DNA of 64,000 nucleotides, from positions 17,064-81,063 of the IMG/VR virus record IMGVR_UViG_3300031577_000195. One strand, 5' to 3'. Shown one piece after another: positions 37,524 through 64,000 of the stretch. This stretch comes from a virus (taxonomy: Duplodnaviria > Caudoviricetes). Within the stretch, counting starts at the first letter, position 1. Each line of letters starts with the position of its first letter. The translations under genes and the position numbers were made by a program. The notes under the pieces are model-generated. The model saw nothing but the letters and a program-made list of their open reading frames with translations, did not search any database and was not told where the DNA came from.

Positions 37524-38147
37524 CTATCTCACACCAGTTGAACCAGTGCCACCCTTTCGTTCTCCATTAGCTTCATCATCATCTATCTTAAGATACTTAT
37601 AGAATATTCCTTGACCTATTCTGTCATGCGTCTTAATCTCAACATCGCTATCACCCAAGTTGATTACGGCGAACATTATATGTCCTTCATTGTTTTCATT
37701 ATTGTAATAATCTGAGTCAATAATCCCTTGTGCATTAACCAGTGTTAATCCTTTCTTAACCGCTAGACTTGACCTAATATGTAACCCAAGGTATTCATCA
37801 GACATCATATAAGCTTTTACTCCTGTTGGAACTAATGTTACCTTATGCGGTTCTATGGTTATATCTGCTGCAACTTCAAAATCATAACCAGCACTATTCT
37901 TAGTCATCCTCTTGGGTAGACTAATATCCTCATATCCTGAGACTACTTCAAATCCACGACCACCTCCAGGTAATCTAAGGTTACTCTCTAAGAAAGTCCA
38001 TTCTTGGCCATTTACAAAGACATAGTAACTTTCAAAATCTGCATAAGTAACCTCTCCAATTGCACCTATGCAATCCATAAGCTCATCAATATATTCGTCT
38101 CCTGGTGGTACTCCTATGATTTCTACCTTATCTCCAATGTCAAACAT
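37524..38147 (-). CDS. dut: Trimeric dUTPase with extra N-terminal domain
   Basis: SAGYD, IRSS, GIIDSDY, RIGQG, GG.GSTG motifs; ~60-aa N-terminal extension. Confidence 0.92.
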   Translation of the reverse strand: MFDIGDKVEIIGVPPGDEYIDELMDCIGAIGEVTYADFESYYVFVNGQEWTFLESNLRLPGGGRGFEVVSGYEDISLPKRMTKNSAGYDFEVAADITIEPHKVTLVPTGVKAYMMSDEYLGLHIRSSLAVKKGLTLVNAQGIIDSDYYNNENNEGHIMFAVINLGDSDVEIKTHDRIGQGIFYKYLKIDDDEANGERKGGTGSTGVR

Positions 38148-38772: not shown

Positions 38773-39357
38773 CTAAAACGCACATTTCTTTTCTTCTTTA
38801 CAGTTATCACAGTTTCTAAAGTTTCTATCGAATATCTCTGGCATAACCAAAGCTAACTCATGCTGTATTCCTATGGCTATCTCTCGGTGTTCTGGCATTG
38901 CTCTCTTGCATACCCTCTTTGGCAAATACTCGAACCAACTGCGGAGATTACCAGTAATCCTAAGTTCAGTCATGGTTGCCTTGGGTAAAACATAAGCTGC
39001 ATCTTGCTTAGCAACACCATTTGCAATTAACTCTTGGTAAACATCAAAAGCATCTTCAATAGCACTTAAGTACATGACGCGGATACCGTAGTCTATTTCA
39101 TCAGGTATACAATAGTCCTCAAAGTCTGCACCTCTGGTACTCTTTACAGTAAAACTAAAGTGTCTATGTCTTGTTATTTGCCCTAAGACTCCCAAGGAAC
39201 ATTTGATATCGAAAGTTGCATAAGCATGTTCAAGGACTGACAAGTGTTGACTTTTGACTAACGGTTCGATTGACTTAGGTTGCCTTCCGTAGCATTTAGC
39301 ACTCGCACCCAAGATTAACTCCAGGTAATCCTTTGAGTAAGATATAAGTTTAACCAT
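38773..39357 (-). CDS. thyX: FAD-dependent thymidylate synthase
   Basis: HLSVLEH, QITRHRHFSFTVKSTR, A.YVLP, NLRSW. Confidence 0.92.
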   Translation of the reverse strand: MVKLISYSKDYLELILGASAKCYGRQPKSIEPLVKSQHLSVLEHAYATFDIKCSLGVLGQITRHRHFSFTVKSTRGADFEDYCIPDEIDYGIRVMYLSAIEDAFDVYQELIANGVAKQDAAYVLPKATMTELRITGNLRSWFEYLPKRVCKRAMPEHREIAIGIQHELALVMPEIFDRNFRNCDNCKEEKKCAF

Positions 39358-40340
39358 TCAATCTCTCCTTTTGTACCTCAAGTAACATCTGTTGTAACTC
39401 TGCGATACGCTGGTTTTTATCTTGAAGCTGTCCGTTTAGTTGCTCATTGATTGACTTTAGTTGTAATACATTGTTCTTCAATGAAGCAATTTCAAAACCA
39501 AGGTCTAGCCACCTCCACACACCAGTGTAACTTTCCTTTTCTGCCTTGAGTTCATCAAGTTCTCTCACTAGCTTCTCCTTTGATTTAAACCAATCGAATA
39601 TCATTCAGTTCCTCCTTTGCGCACTCTGGACAATAGATGTTTCCATTTGCTGTCCACCAGCCATCGTAGACTTCAGCCAAAGGTGTTTCTTGTGTAATCA
39701 TCGCTTCAGGTAACTCATTACATTTACTACAGACTGGCACAGTATTCATATGTTTTACTCTAAAGTACATTACGCTCATTCGTTATCTCCTTAGATTGCT
39801 TATTTAGTACCAACTGTCTATACATGCGTATCGTCCTATCGCGTTTCACTAGTTCTTCCTCAAGTTCCTCTATGATTGCCTGTTGCATAGCTATAGTTCT
39901 ACTCTTGTCTTCACAGCACATCACTAGCACCCCTTTTGTTAACTTTTGAGTATTTTAGGCATACTTATACATCAGTCCAATAGCTACCATGATACTGCTT
40001 GCTGTACCACTCTTTGATTATCTTGCAGTATCCCAAAGCATCCAAATGTTCAGAGCAAATTTTATCACATGATACACAAGGCTCTATCTTAAGCATACTC
40101 ATCATCCTTAACTATTTTGTAGCCATCTGGAAATTCAATGAATAACCTTTTGCTGTTCACAAAAGAGAACAACTGCACTCCATCGTGTTCAAGTAGCTTC
40201 TCTTCGTTTCTCATTATGATAGTTACTGGTGCTTCAATACATATGGTATATAGCTTTGGGAACCACTTGTCTTCAACCCAAGCCCATATCTTTCTGATTC
40301 TTCCACCACCAACAGATAATCTATATTCAATCGCTGACAT
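39350..40340 (-). other. Small hypothetical ORFs (39350-39604, 39585-39779, 40089-40340)
   Basis: ORF track; co-oriented with RBSs. Confidence 0.6.
39931..39961 (-). repeat. RBS-associated directional motif, copy 4
   Basis: TGCCTAAAATACTCAAAAGTTAACAAAAGGG. Confidence 0.9.
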
Positions 40341-40437
40341 TAGTTCCCTCCTTTGATTGTCTTATATATCTTAACTACCTCATGTACCGCAGCTATTGCA
40401 AAGTAAATACCTATCGAACATACTACAGATTCAAACA

Positions 40438-40629
40438 TTAGCATTCCTCCTTCTGATAAAGTCCACAGTGACATTCATCAGTTTCCCGATAGTCTTTACA
40501 TGGACATACATAGTCTTCAGCTTGATCACTTGTGTATACCCAAGGTGCCACACATGGGCAAAATGGTTTGCCGTAAAGTTCTTTATTGCGTTTAAGTCCA
40601 TTGATCACCGTTTGTTTATCTTTAGTCAT
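40438..40629 (-). CDS. Ferredoxin:thioredoxin reductase catalytic-subunit-like protein
   Basis: NKELYG...CPC...CPC...CHCGLY, the three Cys motifs of the FTR beta chain. Confidence 0.88.
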   Translation of the reverse strand: MTKDKQTVINGLKRNKELYGKPFCPCVAPWVYTSDQAEDYVCPCKDYRETDECHCGLYQKEEC

Positions 40630-41074
40630 AATCTACCTCCTTTCGTAAATACTTTTGGTTTGTACTTGCGAGTTCATATGATTCATCCCTAAGTTCTTCC
40701 ATATAGCGACCGACTTTGATTACATCGAAAAACTTAAAGCACCATTTTGGTATTTCCTCTTGGTCAGCACCAGTAAATAACCAAAGTTTCTTATCTTGAA
40801 ACTCATAACGCAATTCATAAGAAAACAGAAATGCTTCACTTGGCTTTTGACAAAGAAGATCGCCACCTATGATTGATATAATGTCGAACCATTGCTTTCC
40901 TTCATTCAACTCTTGGTATAACCTAACAGAATTCAAGGGTTCTCCATAATTATAATCCTGTAGTTGTGGATTATGGCATCCCTTACAATTCCTATAGCAA
41001 CCACTTGGATATATTTCTACAGCTACACCATCGTATGCATTTACAGCATCCCATTGTATTCCTGCAATATTCAC
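40622..41074 (-). CDS. nrdG: Anaerobic RNR activase
   Basis: SGCYRNCKGCHNP, IIGGD, WLFTG, G.Y...L...S.NQ. Confidence 0.92.
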   Translation of the reverse strand: MNIAGIQWDAVNAYDGVAVEIYPSGCYRNCKGCHNPQLQDYNYGEPLNSVRLYQELNEGKQWFDIISIIGGDLLCQKPSEAFLFSYELRYEFQDKKLWLFTGADQEEIPKWCFKFFDVIKVGRYMEELRDESYELASTNQKYLRKEVDYD

Positions 41075-41105: not shown

Positions 41106-41225
41106 TTACATTGAATAACATTTGCGACAATTAAACTCTTGTGCTTTTCCTTTGTTGAAATCCTTGATTTCTGCGTAATACCCTACGCACCTTGTGTAAA
41201 CTTTTGGTTGAACTTTAACTTTCAT
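41106..41225 (-). CDS. Stand-alone glycyl-radical domain of NrdD (39 aa)
   Basis: Manual translation MKVKVQPKVYTRCVGYYAEIKDFNKGKAQEFNCRKCYSM; TAATG overlap with the nrdD stop; RBS GGAGGTG. Confidence 0.88.
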   Translation of the reverse strand: MKVKVQPKVYTRCVGYYAEIKDFNKGKAQEFNCRKCYSM

Positions 41226-42925
41226 TATTCCACCTCCATTTCTATTCCTTGCTGTCTATAGGTTTCAATTTGCTCTTCTGTTAACACATGTTCACAAAGT
41301 TCACCCTTTGCGAGATGCTTAGAGCAAATTGGGCAAATCCTACGAGTTGGAGAAATGTTGATATACGGTAATGTTGTGTTGGTTACAAGTTTTCTTACGA
41401 TTGATTTTGCAGCTTTACCACCAATCGGTTCATCAATATAATGAAAGAAGCAAGCTCCACCACTAAATAAATTTTGTAAATCCTGCTGATGTTCTGCAGC
41501 AAACTTAAGACTATACTGGGTATCATTATCTAGCCATGAACCTCTTGTATATCTTGGTATATCTTCAGTTCCCGAAAGTATCATATCTGGATGCTGCTCT
41601 TTCATATGTTTTGCAAAACGATACATTGTTGATTCTCCTGGAATACTTTCAAGATTCATATAGATACCTCTGCCGTTATAGCAATGGCTATTCTTTTCCT
41701 GAAGTTCACCGATTTTATCATTCATATACCTTAGAACTTCTTCGGCAAAACTCTTGCCCTCTGGAGTATCAATATCATTACCATCAAAGTTTAAGCACAT
41801 TTCCCTAAGTCCTATGATTCCAATGGTTGAGAAAAAGTGGCTAAAGTCGTGGATATATCGATGTAACGTAGGATACATACCTTTTTCCATCATATCTTCG
41901 ATAAATGACCGCTTTTTACCTAATGCATCTATGGCTAACTCCATATATTCGTCAATGTACATATAGAATAGCTCTTTATTGCCTTCGGATAAGTGAGCAT
42001 ATAGTGGTAAGTTTAAGGTTACTACTCCAATACTACCTGAGTTATCAGCAGCACCAAAGCTACCTCCGACCTGTTTAGATACTTTTGACATATCCAATTT
42101 CAATGAGCAGCACATTGACTTAACGCTATCAGGATCATAATCAGAATTGACATAGTTATTAATTGTGGCTATTCCAGCTTCACCCAAGGTTTTAAATAAA
42201 GTTTCAGCAAATTTGTTATCCCAATTGAAATCCTTGGTTATGCCTATGTTAATCACAGGGAATGTAAGTACACTTTTGCTGTCTGCGAGTATTTCTAATA
42301 TTGCCCTTCCAATCCACTCAGCATATTCTTGGCAATCATCATAAGTAAAATCCAGTTCTTCTCCTGCGATAATTGGCTGTCTACCCTGAAGTCTCTTGGG
42401 TACTGTAATATCTAAATGCATGTTCACGAATGGACTCTGCCAACCTATACGCCCCTTAATATTAATCGAATGAATAAACTCTTGTAATGTCTGTTTCATC
42501 TGCTTGTAAGTTAACTTATCGTTTTTAACGTAAGGAGCAAGAAGAATATCTACAGTATTAAATGCTACAGCACCATTGATTTGTTGACTTATGAGAAATA
42601 TTGCATTCATGGTTTGGCTTAAAGCTGAACTAAAATGCTTTGGCGCACCATCAATATCGTTAAGCCCCTTCATTAGAAACATCTCGTAGTCCAGCCCAAG
42701 ACAATATAGATTCATTCCGCTGAGATCGTGAATATGATAAAAGCATTTCTTATGGGCATCTGCCATTTCCTGAGTATAAATATTGTCCAGCATATATTTA
42801 GATGTAATATGGTTCAGTACATACCCTAGCATTCCTGGATAAGCGTAAGATGCATTAGAGTTCTCCTTGATTCTCCAGTCAGTATTTGCAACATAAGTAT
42901 CGATAAGATTATTAGTATTTAGCAA
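41225..42925 (-). CDS. nrdD: Class III ribonucleotide reductase catalytic body (no ATP cone, no Gly-radical tail)
   Basis: ENSN, HIHDL, YCLG, SMCCSL, GSIGVVTLNLP, NLESIPGES, CPIC...C; ends without the RxxGY loop. Confidence 0.93.
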   Translation of the reverse strand: MLNTNNLIDTYVANTDWRIKENSNASYAYPGMLGYVLNHITSKYMLDNIYTQEMADAHKKCFYHIHDLSGMNLYCLGLDYEMFLMKGLNDIDGAPKHFSSALSQTMNAIFLISQQINGAVAFNTVDILLAPYVKNDKLTYKQMKQTLQEFIHSINIKGRIGWQSPFVNMHLDITVPKRLQGRQPIIAGEELDFTYDDCQEYAEWIGRAILEILADSKSVLTFPVINIGITKDFNWDNKFAETLFKTLGEAGIATINNYVNSDYDPDSVKSMCCSLKLDMSKVSKQVGGSFGAADNSGSIGVVTLNLPLYAHLSEGNKELFYMYIDEYMELAIDALGKKRSFIEDMMEKGMYPTLHRYIHDFSHFFSTIGIIGLREMCLNFDGNDIDTPEGKSFAEEVLRYMNDKIGELQEKNSHCYNGRGIYMNLESIPGESTMYRFAKHMKEQHPDMILSGTEDIPRYTRGSWLDNDTQYSLKFAAEHQQDLQNLFSGGACFFHYIDEPIGGKAAKSIVRKLVTNTTLPYINISPTRRICPICSKHLAKGELCEHVLTEEQIETYRQQGIEMEVE

Positions 42926-62689: not shown

Positions 62690-62911
62690 TACCTTTGTTA
62701 AACTTTGTTATCGCAAATATATTGTATCTTTTGTTATTGCATATGTATATTCTTAGATGCTATAATTATCACGATAGGTCACAGACTAAGGTTTTATTAT
62801 TAATCGCTAATCTCAATTATGCAAACATGTGTTCTACTTCCTTAGTTTACCATATGATTTTCCATTTATCAACAATTATTTGCACCGCAATAAAAAAGAA
62901 AGGTGAAAGAA

Positions 62912-64000
62912 ATGGCACGTAGACGCAAAGGTGAAGGCACTCAGTACAAAACCACAATTAATAAAAAAATGTATTTTGCAGTTGAAAAAACAATTGATGG
63001 GAAAAAGCATACAGCTTACTCCAGAAAATCCTATAAAGAGGCTGCTGATAAACTTAAAGCTAAACTTCAGAATACTTCAAATGAATCAAAGTTAACCGTT
63101 GAGTATCTCTTTAAAGAATGGCTGGCATTTAAGTTAAACAAGGTTAAGACAAGAACATACGAAAATTACGCCATGTATGTAAAGAATAGGATTGTCCCAA
63201 GTTTAGGTGAGATACTATTAACCAAATTAACCACACACGATCTTGAGGAGTTCTATGACGACCTAGTGAACGACAATGTTAATCCTATGACCGTCCAAGG
63301 ACTTCATGGGTATATATACAACGCTATCGAGTATGGCATCAAAAGAGAATGGCTTACTAATAACGTTGCACAAAGATGTGAACTACCAAAAGGTAAACCA
63401 CCGAATATCTATGTACTCTCTGAAGATGAAATAAAGACTTTACTCGAATCAGCCCAAGGTACTCGTATGTATCTCCCAATACTTCTCACGTTGGCCTCTG
63501 GTGTCCGTAAAGGCGAACTTTTAGGACTCATGGGTAAAGATGTAGGTAGCAACTCTATTACCATCTCTAGGTCACTAGGGCCAATTAGGAGAAACGGAGA
63601 TGTAAAAAGCAGATTGGAGCTTGGTAGTACTAAGAACGAAGCCATTAGAACCATACCATTGCCTACTGAGATAATCGAGCAATTACCTAAAGTTGATAAA
63701 AATGAAATGCTATTTCCGTCAGCTAATGGTCACCTTTGGTTTCCTTCAAGTTTCAGTGTAGAATTCAAGGCGATTAAATTGAAAGCAAATTTAGGAGATG
63801 TTAGGTTTCATGACTTAAGACATACTCATGCATCTCATATGTTAGCCAATGGTGTTGATATTGTCACAGTTGCCCAGCGGTTAGGCCACAAGAATATACG
63901 AACAACACTGAATACTTATGCACACGTTATACAAAAGGCTCAACTCGAAGCCGCAAACAAAATTGCAACCTTTTTGCCATACACCTTAAATAAACCTTAA
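62912..64000 (+). CDS. int: Tyrosine integrase
   Basis: RR.GEG arm domain, SGVRKGELLGL, HDLRHTHA, RLGH....TT...YAH; RBS AAAGGTG. Confidence 0.97.
   Translation: MARRRKGEGTQYKTTINKKMYFAVEKTIDGKKHTAYSRKSYKEAADKLKAKLQNTSNESKLTVEYLFKEWLAFKLNKVKTRTYENYAMYVKNRIVPSLGEILLTKLTTHDLEEFYDDLVNDNVNPMTVQGLHGYIYNAIEYGIKREWLTNNVAQRCELPKGKPPNIYVLSEDEIKTLLESAQGTRMYLPILLTLASGVRKGELLGLMGKDVGSNSITISRSLGPIRRNGDVKSRLELGSTKNEAIRTIPLPTEIIEQLPKVDKNEMLFPSANGHLWFPSSFSVEFKAIKLKANLGDVRFHDLRHTHASHMLANGVDIVTVAQRLGHKNIRTTLNTYAHVIQKAQLEAANKIATFLPYTLNKP

What the first reader, a model, noticed from the sequence alone, without database searches (positions are those of the whole stretch)
40438..40629. Phage-encoded ferredoxin:thioredoxin-reductase-like subunit coupled to class III RNR
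Seen: a 63-aa CPC/CPC/CHC protein overlapping the nrdG end, in the order nrdD, Gly-radical peptide, nrdG, FTR-like. NrdD has SMCC and no ATP cone. Established: some class III RNRs use thioredoxin rather than formate (Neisseria bacilliformis), and Methanosarcina barkeri NrdD receives electrons through a ferredoxin:disulfide reductase of the FTR family. Inference: a minimal ferredoxin-driven dNTP supply module carried by a phage of an anaerobe. No thioredoxin or NrdH was seen in the window, so transfer may be direct or use a host protein.
Basis: partly seen in the sequence, partly recalled or inferred. Interest (0 to 1): 0.78.

Follow-up and report, generated by a model that had tools for sequence, protein, structure and literature searches.

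The report
Phage mini-FTR beside anaerobic RNR
A temperate phage encodes, overlapping the end of the activase gene of its oxygen-sensitive ribonucleotide reductase, a 63-residue cut-down relative of the iron-sulfur enzyme ferredoxin:thioredoxin reductase. It probably lets low-potential host electrons pay for the phage's DNA building blocks, but no activity has been tested.

Summary
ORF 40438-40629 (-) is a real 63-aa member of the FTR catalytic-chain family: Pfam PF02943 46 bits against a cut-off of 22, all six Cys and the His kept, predicted fold TM 0.73-0.82 to solved FTR chains. It overlaps nrdG by 8 nt in the operon nrdD, 39-aa glycyl-radical peptide, nrdG, mini-FTR.

The same four-gene order recurs in two phages whose NrdD is only about 52-53% identical. 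Mini-FTR lies just downstream of nrdD/nrdG in 11 distinct viral lineages. It is fused to two different NrdG subtypes and to Grx/Trx-like domains, and once follows a class II RNR.

Every NrdD examined from an FTR-bearing phage has the double-Cys finger loop. Here these are C75, M271-C272-C273 and E426, the thiol-using type, although Met271 leaves formate possible.

The 81-kb record (CheckV 100%) encodes no thioredoxin, glutaredoxin/NrdH, ferredoxin, flavodoxin, rubredoxin or FTR variable chain. About half of the related phage loci do carry a small CP[KR]C redoxin.

Best reading: a ferredoxin-type donor feeds mini-FTR, which reduces a host redoxin or NrdD directly. The closest known system is Methanosarcina barkeri FDR-NrdH-NrdD3.

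I found no paper on this. The scan has already noted the same module on at least 70 other genomes.

The parts
40438..40629 (-). Mini-FTR: a 63-aa homologue of the FTR catalytic chain. By alignment to Synechocystis FTR (ligand roles are my own knowledge of that enzyme), C24, C42, C44 and C53 are the predicted [4Fe-4S] ligands and C26/C55 the predicted redox-active pair, with H54 beside it. C63 is an extra, non-conserved Cys.
   Evidence: PF02943 46.3 bits, cut-off 22. PDB sequence hits to 2pvd and 1dj7. AF2 pLDDT 86 and Foldseek TMq 0.73-0.82 to FTR chains, then 4tpu and 7pwe. All six Cys are at least 90% conserved in 50 mini-FTRs. dN/dS about 0.2.
40636..40640 (-). Shine-Dalgarno GGAGG six nt upstream of the FTR start, inside the nrdG 3' end. 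The FTR ATG (40627-40629) overlaps the nrdG stop (40622-40624) as ATGACTAA.
   Evidence: Read directly from the sequence.
40622..41074 (-). NrdG activase, 150 aa, with radical-SAM motif C26-x3-C30-x2-C33.
   Evidence: PF13353 Fer4_12 E 3.9e-17 and phrog_626 (anaerobic RNR small subunit) E 5.5e-24. Cys positions.
41106..41225 (-). 39-aa glycyl-radical peptide (RCVGYY, Gly15). Its ATG overlaps the nrdD stop as TAATG, with GGAGGTG upstream.
   Evidence: NRDD profile positions 534-562, E 8.5e-6. Junction sequence. The peptide is kept as a separate gene in L008 (36-nt spacer) and L012.
41225..42925 (-). NrdD catalytic body, 566 aa, without an ATP cone. It has C75, the finger loop M271-C272-C273-S, and E426.
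   Evidence: PF13597 E 3.5e-108 over profile positions 1-534. The best solved relative is T. maritima NrdD: MCCS aligns to SCCR 328-331 and E426 to E495. Motif columns; residue numbers.
38773..39357 (-). ThyX (flavin-dependent thymidylate synthase). Context: it lies in the same minus-strand nucleotide-metabolism block, 1.1 kb downstream of FTR.
   Evidence: PF02511 E 1.1e-42. No terminator-like site was found on the minus strand between 44500 and 38500.
37524..38147 (-). dUTPase. Context: same block.
   Evidence: PF00692 E 8.8e-20.

Best explanation
The 63-aa protein is a single-domain, cut-down FTR catalytic module: a [4Fe-4S] cluster beside a redox-active Cys26/Cys55 pair. It is made together with NrdG from the phage operon nrdD, Gly-radical peptide, nrdG, FTR.

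Proposed mechanism. It takes two single electrons from a low-potential host carrier (ferredoxin, possibly flavodoxin). It uses them to reduce a disulfide that belongs to the turnover cycle of the phage's thiol-type class III RNR. The most likely route is through a host thioredoxin- or glutaredoxin-fold protein, which then reduces the C75-C272/273 disulfide of NrdD. Direct reduction of NrdD is less likely.

Shown here:
- Family and predicted fold of the protein.
- Gene coupling to nrdG.
- Conserved synteny and gene fusions with RNR components.
- Double-Cys plus Glu active site of the NrdD.
- Absence of phage-encoded redoxin or donor.

Inferred:
- Cluster binding, the identity of the donor, the identity of the disulfide substrate, and the physiological benefit (dNTP synthesis independent of formate and NADPH).
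For: Family and fold. All six Cys, including the two that are not cluster ligands, are at least 90% conserved among 50 mini-FTRs. That argues for disulfide chemistry rather than simple electron carriage.

The same four-gene operon occurs in L008 and L012, where NrdD is 52-53% identical, under purifying selection.

In the first viral survey, NrdD lies within 6 kb upstream on the same strand in 11 distinct lineages, usually as nrdG-FTR with overlapping ends.

Fusions: NrdG-FTR in two NrdG subtypes (P0124, P0091) and redoxin-FTR (P0026, P0040).

L031 has a class II RNR, which needs no activase, followed by two mini-FTR genes. L027 has an NrdD3-type NrdD (QCCA, no Glu) directly followed by FTR. 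That NrdD finger-loop type is the one of the M. barkeri system.

Nine of 16 nrdD-FTR loci also carry a small CP[KR]C redoxin or a Trx. Glutaredoxin is the most frequent Pfam family among 96 neighbouring ORFs.

All 14 NrdD lineages examined from FTR-bearing phages have the double-Cys loop, including three whose nrdD lies far from the FTR gene. The window's NrdD has C75, MCC and E426.
Against: There is no biochemistry for any mini-FTR.

Met271 in the finger loop means the enzyme may also, or instead, use formate (PMC9669993).

This phage encodes no redoxin and no donor, so two of the three relay partners are hypothetical host proteins, and the host is unknown.

The protein lacks the N- and C-terminal parts of canonical FTR and has no variable chain. 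Stable cluster binding is therefore unproven.

In the second survey 69 of the 80 loci kept show no RNR gene within 6 kb. crAss001-type phages keep the gene in their tRNA block. The family is therefore not strictly an RNR accessory.

Both surveys were seeded with motifs from this family and are not unbiased.
Confidence: 0.6

Rival explanations
1. The mini-FTR serves activation, not turnover. It would pass single electrons to the [4Fe-4S] cluster of NrdG, the role flavodoxin plays in E. coli, so that S-adenosylmethionine is cleaved and the glycyl radical is installed on the 39-aa peptide.
For: The gene overlaps nrdG by 8 nt. nrdG-FTR is the commonest pairing in related phages. NrdG-FTR fusions arose in two NrdG subtypes. 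The phage encodes no flavodoxin or ferredoxin of its own.
Against: The two non-ligand Cys, the disulfide pair, are conserved as strongly as the cluster ligands. Mini-FTR is also fused to Grx/Trx-like domains. It follows a class II RNR, which has no activase (L031). It sits next to small redoxins in 9 of 16 loci. In canonical FTR the cluster is not a simple one-electron carrier (established knowledge of FTR, not tested here).
Confidence: 0.12
2. The mini-FTR is a general phage thiol-redox helper that keeps host thioredoxin or other disulfides reduced during infection. It would sit beside nrdG only because nucleotide-metabolism genes cluster. ThyX or other enzymes could equally be the beneficiaries.
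For: 69 of the 80 loci kept in the second survey have no RNR gene within 6 kb. crAss001-like phages carry the gene in a tRNA block. Other neighbours and fusions include ThyX (P0050, L010, L025/L026, L119) and NT5C (L028). ThyX lies 1.1 kb downstream in this window.
Against: Of five such phages sampled, four encode an RNR elsewhere in the record: three a double-Cys NrdD and crAss001 a class I/II large subunit. The fifth record is only 52% complete. The overlapping nrdG-FTR arrangement and the fusions recur in many lineages. ThyX has no known redox-active disulfide (my own knowledge).
Confidence: 0.18
3. The RNR runs on formate through Met271 and C75, as in E. coli and T4. The mini-FTR would be only a repair or back-up factor, for example re-reducing an adventitious C75-C272/273 disulfide after oxidative stress.
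For: The finger loop is MCCS with the Met retained. Burnim et al. note that Met-containing double-Cys enzymes have the components for either reductant.
Against: E426, proposed to be needed for formate-independent reduction, is present. Most other FTR-linked NrdDs have S/NCCR without Met, the type thought to use only thioredoxin.
Confidence: 0.08
4. The ORF is a chance or decaying reading frame with no function.
For: It is very short and lacks about 40% of the canonical FTR chain.
Against: It has a strong SD and a coupled start. The Pfam score is twice the cut-off. Orthologues sit at the same position in diverged phages with dN/dS about 0.2. The representative library holds at least 150 clusters of similar proteins, mostly 55-95 aa.
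Confidence: 0.02

Closest known systems
Methanosarcina barkeri class III RNR system: ferredoxin, ferredoxin:disulfide reductase (FDR), NrdH-like redoxin, NrdD3 (Wei et al. 2015, Biochemistry 54:7019). That paper was cited in PMC8365446 and PMC9176816 but was not itself readable here. The FDR structure from M. acetivorans is 4tpu.
   Same: An FTR-catalytic-type domain is encoded with a class III RNR that has the extra finger-loop Cys. The proposed logic is the same: low-potential ferredoxin pays for ribonucleotide reduction through a disulfide relay. 4tpu is a fold match. One related phage locus (L027) even has an NrdD3-type NrdD (QCCA, no Glu).
   Different: The phage protein has 63 aa and no rubredoxin domain. 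No NrdH-like redoxin is encoded. The NrdD has MCC plus Glu rather than QCC without Glu. It is viral rather than archaeal, and the NrdD is in two pieces.
Canonical ferredoxin:thioredoxin reductase of cyanobacteria and chloroplasts (catalytic chain PF02943 plus variable chain PF02941; structures 1dj7, 2pu9, 2pvd, 7bzk).
   Same: It has the CPC...CPC...CHC motif with all six Cys and the His. The core fold matches at TMq 0.73-0.82 with 35-38% identity.
   Different: It covers only profile positions 27-89 of 106 and scores 46 bits, against 85-94 bits for 116-120-aa relatives. There is no variable chain. The context is an RNR operon in a phage rather than photosynthetic regulation.
Neisseria bacilliformis and Thermotoga maritima NrdD (NrdD2, thioredoxin- or protein-dependent class III RNR; 4u3e, 4coi).
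   Same: T. maritima NrdD is the best solved relative of the phage NrdD. The bottom-face Cys, the adjacent Cys pair and the Glu are all present.
   Different: Those enzymes have SCCR without Met and are single chains. Their reductant is an NADPH-linked thioredoxin system (N. bacilliformis) or an unidentified protein (T. maritima, PMC4493059). No FTR-type gene is described next to either.
crAss001 Gp5 and relatives, annotated 'putative ferredoxin-thioredoxin reductase' (MH675552.1).
   Same: A 65-aa phage-encoded mini-FTR of the same family, 44-54% identical over the Cys core.
   Different: It sits in the tRNA block with no RNR neighbour. crAss001 has a class I/II-type RNR large subunit 73 kb away. 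It is an annotation only, and I found no functional study.
Glutaredoxin/ferredoxin-disulfide-reductase fusion protein of Desulfotalea psychrophila (7pwe).
   Same: An FTR-type domain working without a variable chain and joined to a redoxin, like the redoxin-FTR fusions P0026 and P0040 seen here.
   Different: It is a bacterial 196-aa fusion protein, not linked to RNR as far as the entry title says. I found no paper on it in the library.

Membership tests
FTR catalytic chain family (Pfam PF02943, FeThRed_B) | Profile HMM match above the curated gathering score | tested here: met
   46.3 bits against a cut-off of 22, E 4.6e-12. The six-frame search of the record gives 44.6 bits.
FTR catalytic chain family (Pfam PF02943, FeThRed_B) | CPC-x(n)-CPC-x8-CHC: four cluster-ligand Cys, two redox-active Cys and the His | tested here: met
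   C24-P-C26, C42-P-C44 and C53-H54-C55. They align residue for residue with 2pvd, 7bzk and 1dj7.
FTR catalytic chain family (Pfam PF02943, FeThRed_B) | FTR core fold | tested here: met
   The AF2 model has pLDDT 86. The top 10 Foldseek PDB hits are all FTR catalytic chains, TMq 0.73-0.82, followed by 4tpu and 7pwe. This is a prediction, not a solved structure.
FTR catalytic chain family (Pfam PF02943, FeThRed_B) | Binds a [4Fe-4S] cluster next to the disulfide | not testable with these tools
   Needs anaerobic purification and spectroscopy.
Canonical FTR holoenzyme (catalytic plus variable chain) | Partner variable chain (PF02941) | tested here: not met
   No PF02941 match in the 81-kb record. 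A host copy cannot be excluded, but the host is unknown.
Canonical FTR holoenzyme (catalytic plus variable chain) | Full-length catalytic chain of about 110 aa with N- and C-terminal helices | tested here: not met
   63 aa, covering profile positions 27-89 of 106. The 116-120-aa relatives start at profile positions 2-25 and reach 91-96, and score 85-94 bits.
Canonical FTR holoenzyme (catalytic plus variable chain) | Ferredoxin-dependent reduction of thioredoxin | not testable with these tools
   Needs an enzymatic assay.
Methanosarcina-type FDR | FTR-like domain joined to a C-terminal rubredoxin-like domain | tested here: not met
   The protein ends 8 residues after CHC. There is no PF00301 match in the record. 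4tpu matches only over the FTR core.
Methanosarcina-type FDR | Operon with an NrdH-like redoxin and an NrdD3 (QCCR/A, no Glu) | tested here: not met
   There is no Grx/NrdH or Trx gene. The NrdD has MCCS plus E426.
Thiol-dependent class III RNR (NrdD2 of Wei et al., as described in PMC4493059 and PMC9669993) | Bottom-face Cys, a second finger-loop Cys and an active-site Glu | tested here: met
   C75, C272-C273 and E426 align to T. maritima C125, C329-C330 and E495.
Thiol-dependent class III RNR (NrdD2 of Wei et al., as described in PMC4493059 and PMC9669993) | No Met at the start of the finger-loop motif (the 'thioredoxin only' subclades of Burnim et al.) | tested here: not met
   Met271 is present (MCCS), so formate use is not excluded.
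Class III RNR activase NrdG | Radical-SAM CxxxCxxC motif and a family HMM match | tested here: met
   C26-x3-C30-x2-C33. PF13353 E 3.9e-17 and phrog_626 E 5.5e-24.

The most novel reading that the evidence does not exclude
The mini-FTR reduces the NrdD C75-C272/273 disulfide directly, with no thioredoxin-fold intermediary. This could happen while it is docked on NrdG or NrdD. That would make it the first FTR-type enzyme whose substrate is not a redoxin, and it would make this four-gene operon a complete ferredoxin-to-dNTP machine that needs only host ferredoxin.

The redoxin-less layout is conserved in the window, L008 and L012. It is also seen in L003, L025 and L027. This is compatible with direct reduction but does not show it.
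Probability: 0.2. Interest if true: 0.8.

Novelty: new variant of a known kind. Interest (0 to 1): 0.55.

Why it matters
The physiological reductant of double-Cys class III RNRs is known for only a few enzymes. For T. maritima NrdD it is still an unidentified protein (PMC4493059).

A small, widespread, phage-borne FTR-type protein that travels with exactly these NrdDs gives a concrete and easily tested candidate. It would tie dNTP synthesis in anaerobes to the ferredoxin pool rather than to formate or NADPH.

At about 60 residues it would also be the smallest FTR-type disulfide reductase, a convenient model for the unusual cluster-disulfide chemistry. It would be another example of a phage bringing its own redox link for genome replication.

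I found no paper that describes it. It is not unique to this window: the scan has noted it on at least 70 other genomes. What is particular here is the redoxin-less arrangement combined with a two-piece NrdD.

Tried and rejected
Tools that failed or were unavailable:
The contexts of most representative hits, including the redoxin-FTR and ThyX-FTR fusions, could not be read.
It found only relatives 35-39% identical in Patescibacteria, Dojkabacteria, Leptospiraceae and 'Cyanobacteria' MAGs. These have no FTR nearby, and their NrdD is unsplit except in L034. The host therefore stays unknown.
- The two primary papers, Wei 2014 (PMC4246965) and Wei 2015 (PMC4697749), are not held. The NrdD1/2/3 criteria were taken from PMC4493059 and PMC9669993.

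Searches that found nothing:
- Megablast of 10 kb of the window against GenBank phages gave no match.
- tblastn of the FTR against GenBank phages found only crAss-like phages.

Limits of my own analysis:
- My first NrdG HMM missed a second activase subtype with the signature CSFKCDKEC, which has no Pfam hit. It was recovered with a second HMM.
- dS is saturated between the window and its relatives, so dN/dS could be estimated only for some pairs.

Readings rejected or left open:
- Chance ORF: rejected.
- Canonical FTR holoenzyme: rejected, because there is no variable chain and the chain is truncated.
- Methanosarcina-type FDR: rejected, because there is no rubredoxin domain.
- ThyX as the main client: no evidence beyond adjacency and one fusion.

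Full report
**What the window is.** The window is part of an 81,063-bp IMG/VR virus record, classed as a provirus and rated 100% complete by CheckV.
- It encodes a terminase, portal, tape measure, DnaB-type helicase, primase and RNA ligase.
- It has a large serine recombinase at one end and a tyrosine integrase at the other, plus a DNA polymerase III alpha subunit.
- GC content is 37% in both the window and the RNR operon, so the operon does not look recently acquired.
- The host is unknown.

**The observation.** ORF 40438-40629 on the minus strand encodes 63 residues.
- Its ATG is preceded by GGAGG at a 6-nt spacing and overlaps the nrdG stop codon by 8 nt (ATGACTAA).
- The upstream genes on the same strand are nrdG (40622-41074), a 39-codon gene (41106-41225) and nrdD (41225-42925). 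The start of the 39-codon gene overlaps the nrdD stop as TAATG.
- By Pfam these are NRDD (E 3.5e-108, profile positions 1-534 of 562), NRDD positions 534-562 for the peptide (which carries RCVGYY), Fer4_12/radical SAM for NrdG, and PF02943 FeThRed_B for the 63-aa protein (46.3 bits, cut-off 22).
- No terminator-like site was found on the minus strand between 44.5 and 38.5 kb. The four genes therefore lie in a longer transcription unit that runs on to ThyX and dUTPase.

**The protein is a real, minimal FTR catalytic module.**
- It has C24-P-C26, C42-P-C44 and C53-H54-C55. These align position for position with the three Cys motifs of the Synechocystis and chloroplast FTR catalytic chains (E about 5e-8).
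- From established knowledge of FTR, this corresponds to four cluster ligands plus the redox-active pair (here C26 and C55) and the adjacent His.
- An AlphaFold2 model built on 50 homologues has mean pLDDT 86. Its ten best Foldseek matches in the PDB are all FTR catalytic chains (TMq 0.73-0.82). Next come the M. acetivorans ferredoxin:disulfide reductase 4tpu and the D. psychrophila glutaredoxin/FDR fusion 7pwe.
- It covers only profile positions 27-89 of 106. Relatives of 116-120 aa start at profile positions 2-25, reach 91-96, and score twice as high.
- The record has no FTR variable chain and no rubredoxin. It is therefore a member of the PF02943 family, but neither a canonical FTR holoenzyme nor a Methanosarcina-type FDR.

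**It belongs to a large family of equally small proteins.** An exhaustive HMMER search of 1.84 billion representatives returned 150 clusters at E < 1e-3 (the listing is capped at 150). The best are almost all 55-95 aa. In an alignment of 50 of them, C24, P25, C42 and C44 are invariant, and C26, C53 and C55 are at least 90% conserved. The His is more variable. Conservation of the two non-ligand Cys argues for disulfide chemistry.

**Link to ribonucleotide reductase.**
- A JGI contig (L008; FTR 71% identical, NrdD 53%) and an IMG/VR contig (L012; FTR 50%, NrdD 52%) have the same four genes in the same order. This includes the separate glycyl-radical peptide, which in L008 follows a 36-nt spacer.
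- Synonymous sites are saturated. Where it can be estimated, dN/dS is 0.1-0.2 for the FTR, the peptide and NrdG.
- In a first viral survey (26 loci), NrdD lies within 6 kb upstream on the same strand in 11 distinct lineages. It is usually followed by an NrdG-like gene whose end overlaps the FTR start.
- L003 has the order nrdD-FTR-nrdG.
- Among the representatives, NrdG-FTR fusions occur with two different activase subtypes (P0124, P0091). There are also two redoxin-FTR fusions (P0026, P0040) and one FTR-ThyX fusion (P0050).
- L031 has a class II RNR followed by two tandem mini-FTR genes. This matters because class II needs disulfide re-reduction but has no activase.
- L027 has an NrdD with QCCA and no Glu (the NrdD3 pattern) and an ATP cone, directly followed by an FTR gene.

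**Redoxins.**
- Among 96 neighbouring ORFs from 16 nrdD-FTR loci, Glutaredoxin is the most frequently matched Pfam family.
- By inspection, eight loci carry a 67-88-aa CP[KR]C redoxin just upstream of nrdD. One (L115) carries a thioredoxin just after an NrdG-FTR fusion.
- The window's clade (window, L008, L012) has none, and neither do L003, L025 and L027.
- The whole 81-kb record has no match to Thioredoxin, Glutaredoxin, Flavodoxin_1, Fer4, Fer4_7 or Rubredoxin. It also has no match to a profile of the phage CP[KR]C redoxins.

**The NrdD is of the thiol-using type, with a caveat.**
- Its best solved relative is T. maritima NrdD.
- C75 aligns to Tm C125. M271-C272-C273-S aligns to Tm S328-C-C-R331. 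E426 aligns to Tm E495.
- According to PMC4493059, NrdD2 is defined by the third Cys and the Glu, and NrdD3 by the third Cys without the Glu.
- According to PMC9669993, class III enzymes split into MGCR and xCCR types. One of the two adjacent Cys forms the disulfide with the beta-A Cys, and thioredoxin then reduces it. Enzymes that keep the Met, as here, have the components for either formate or thioredoxin.
- All 14 NrdD lineages I examined from FTR-bearing phages have the double Cys, mostly as S/NCCR plus Glu without Met. This includes three large phages whose nrdD lies far from the FTR gene.

**Limits of the association.**
- A second survey, seeded with a different mini-FTR subgroup, found 146 viral matches. 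Of the 80 loci kept, mostly from 90-200-kb gut-type phages, 69 have no RNR gene within 6 kb.
- crAss001-like phages keep the gene, annotated 'putative ferredoxin-thioredoxin reductase', in their tRNA block.
- Of five such records, three encode a double-Cys NrdD elsewhere. crAss001 encodes a class I/II large subunit. The fifth record is 52% complete.
- Adjacency is therefore lineage-specific, while genome-level co-occurrence with an RNR looks common. Neither survey is unbiased.

**Mechanism.**
- Best reading (0.6): a host low-potential carrier reduces the mini-FTR. Its C26/C55 pair then reduces a disulfide in the RNR turnover cycle, probably through a host thioredoxin-fold protein and less probably NrdD directly (about 0.2).
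- Rival: electron supply to NrdG for radical installation (0.12). It fits the gene overlap and the NrdG fusions. It does not explain the conserved disulfide pair, the redoxin fusions and neighbours, or the class II case.
- Rival: a general redox-helper role (0.18). It fits the many non-adjacent cases.
- Rival: a formate-driven enzyme with FTR as back-up (0.08). Met271 leaves this open.
- Rival: a chance ORF (0.02). The conservation contradicts it.

**Comparison with what is known, and novelty.**
- The nearest described system is M. barkeri ferredoxin-FDR-NrdH-NrdD3 (Wei et al. 2015, known to me and cited in PMC8365446 and PMC9176816; the paper itself was not readable).
- The present case shares the logic and the FTR-type domain. 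It differs in having no rubredoxin domain and no NrdH, in the NrdD subtype, in being viral, and in having a two-piece NrdD.
- Four full-text searches found no paper linking a phage FTR-like gene to nrdD.
- The scan's own notes show the same module already reported on at least 70 other genomes, including NrdG-FTR and NrdD-Grx-FTR fusions and a cellular Clostridia example. I reproduced the NrdG fusion and the redoxin neighbourhood independently.
- I rate it a new variant of a known kind, of moderate interest. It is a strong, testable candidate for the missing reductant of double-Cys class III RNRs, but it is not unique to this window and is untested.

Noticed in passing
window 41106-42925 (-): NrdD is in two genes: a 566-aa body ending after the CPIC...C-E-H region, and a 39-aa peptive carrying the radical Gly (RCVGYY). 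The stop and start overlap as TAATG. The split is kept in L008 and L012. The nearest cellular NrdDs (35-39% identical, in candidate-phyla-radiation MAGs) are single-chain except L034. This is already the subject of another report on this window (e1-5872977).
   Followed up: partly
L027:3372-3674 (+) and L027:3894-5921 (+): A 100-aa Cys-rich ORF ending in ...ISRITGYLSPVG lies upstream of an NrdD3-type NrdD that stops at NRDD profile position 516 of 562. The glycyl-radical and zinc-ribbon part seems to be encoded before the body rather than after it.
   Followed up: no
L031:1-2322 (+): A class II RNR (PF02867 plus PF21995) is followed by two tandem mini-FTR genes of 85 and 95 aa.
   Followed up: partly
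P0050; L010:692-1424; L025:5323-6144; L119:5992-7138: Mini-FTR is fused to ThyX (P0050) or lies directly beside it. In the window ThyX is 1.1 kb downstream of FTR. There is no obvious chemistry linking a disulfide reductase to ThyX.
   Followed up: no
L014:5239-5760, L015:5501-5971, L023:5529-5990 and others: A second NrdG-like activase subtype (N-terminus like MKI..LIDEDF.NYKKPSMFI, cluster region CSFKCDKEC) has no Pfam hit. It occupies the nrdG slot before FTR and is fused to FTR in P0091.
   Followed up: partly
L013, L015-L018, L020-L022 (nrdD regions): nrdD is broken into 2-5 pieces spread over up to 5 kb with intervening ORFs. GIY-YIG and HNH families occur among the neighbouring ORFs. 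This suggests introns or homing-endonuclease insertions, but it was not analysed.
   Followed up: no
L015:5968-6567, L022:5968-6567; P0012, P0018, P0020: FTR proteins of about 200 aa have an N-terminal mini-FTR and a C-terminal extension of about 120 aa that matches no Pfam family.
   Followed up: no
window 40340-40474 (-): A 44-codon ORF overlaps the FTR 3' end. Its part downstream of the FTR stop is hydrophobic (MLMFESVVCSIGIYFAIAAV...). Similar small hydrophobic ORFs follow FTR in L014, L019 and L020. It is unclear whether it is a gene.
   Followed up: no
L040:1-1446 (+), L040:2402-5506 (-), window 62903-64000 (+): The provirus record carries a large serine recombinase at one end, a tyrosine integrase at the other, and its own DNA polymerase III alpha subunit.
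   Followed up: partly
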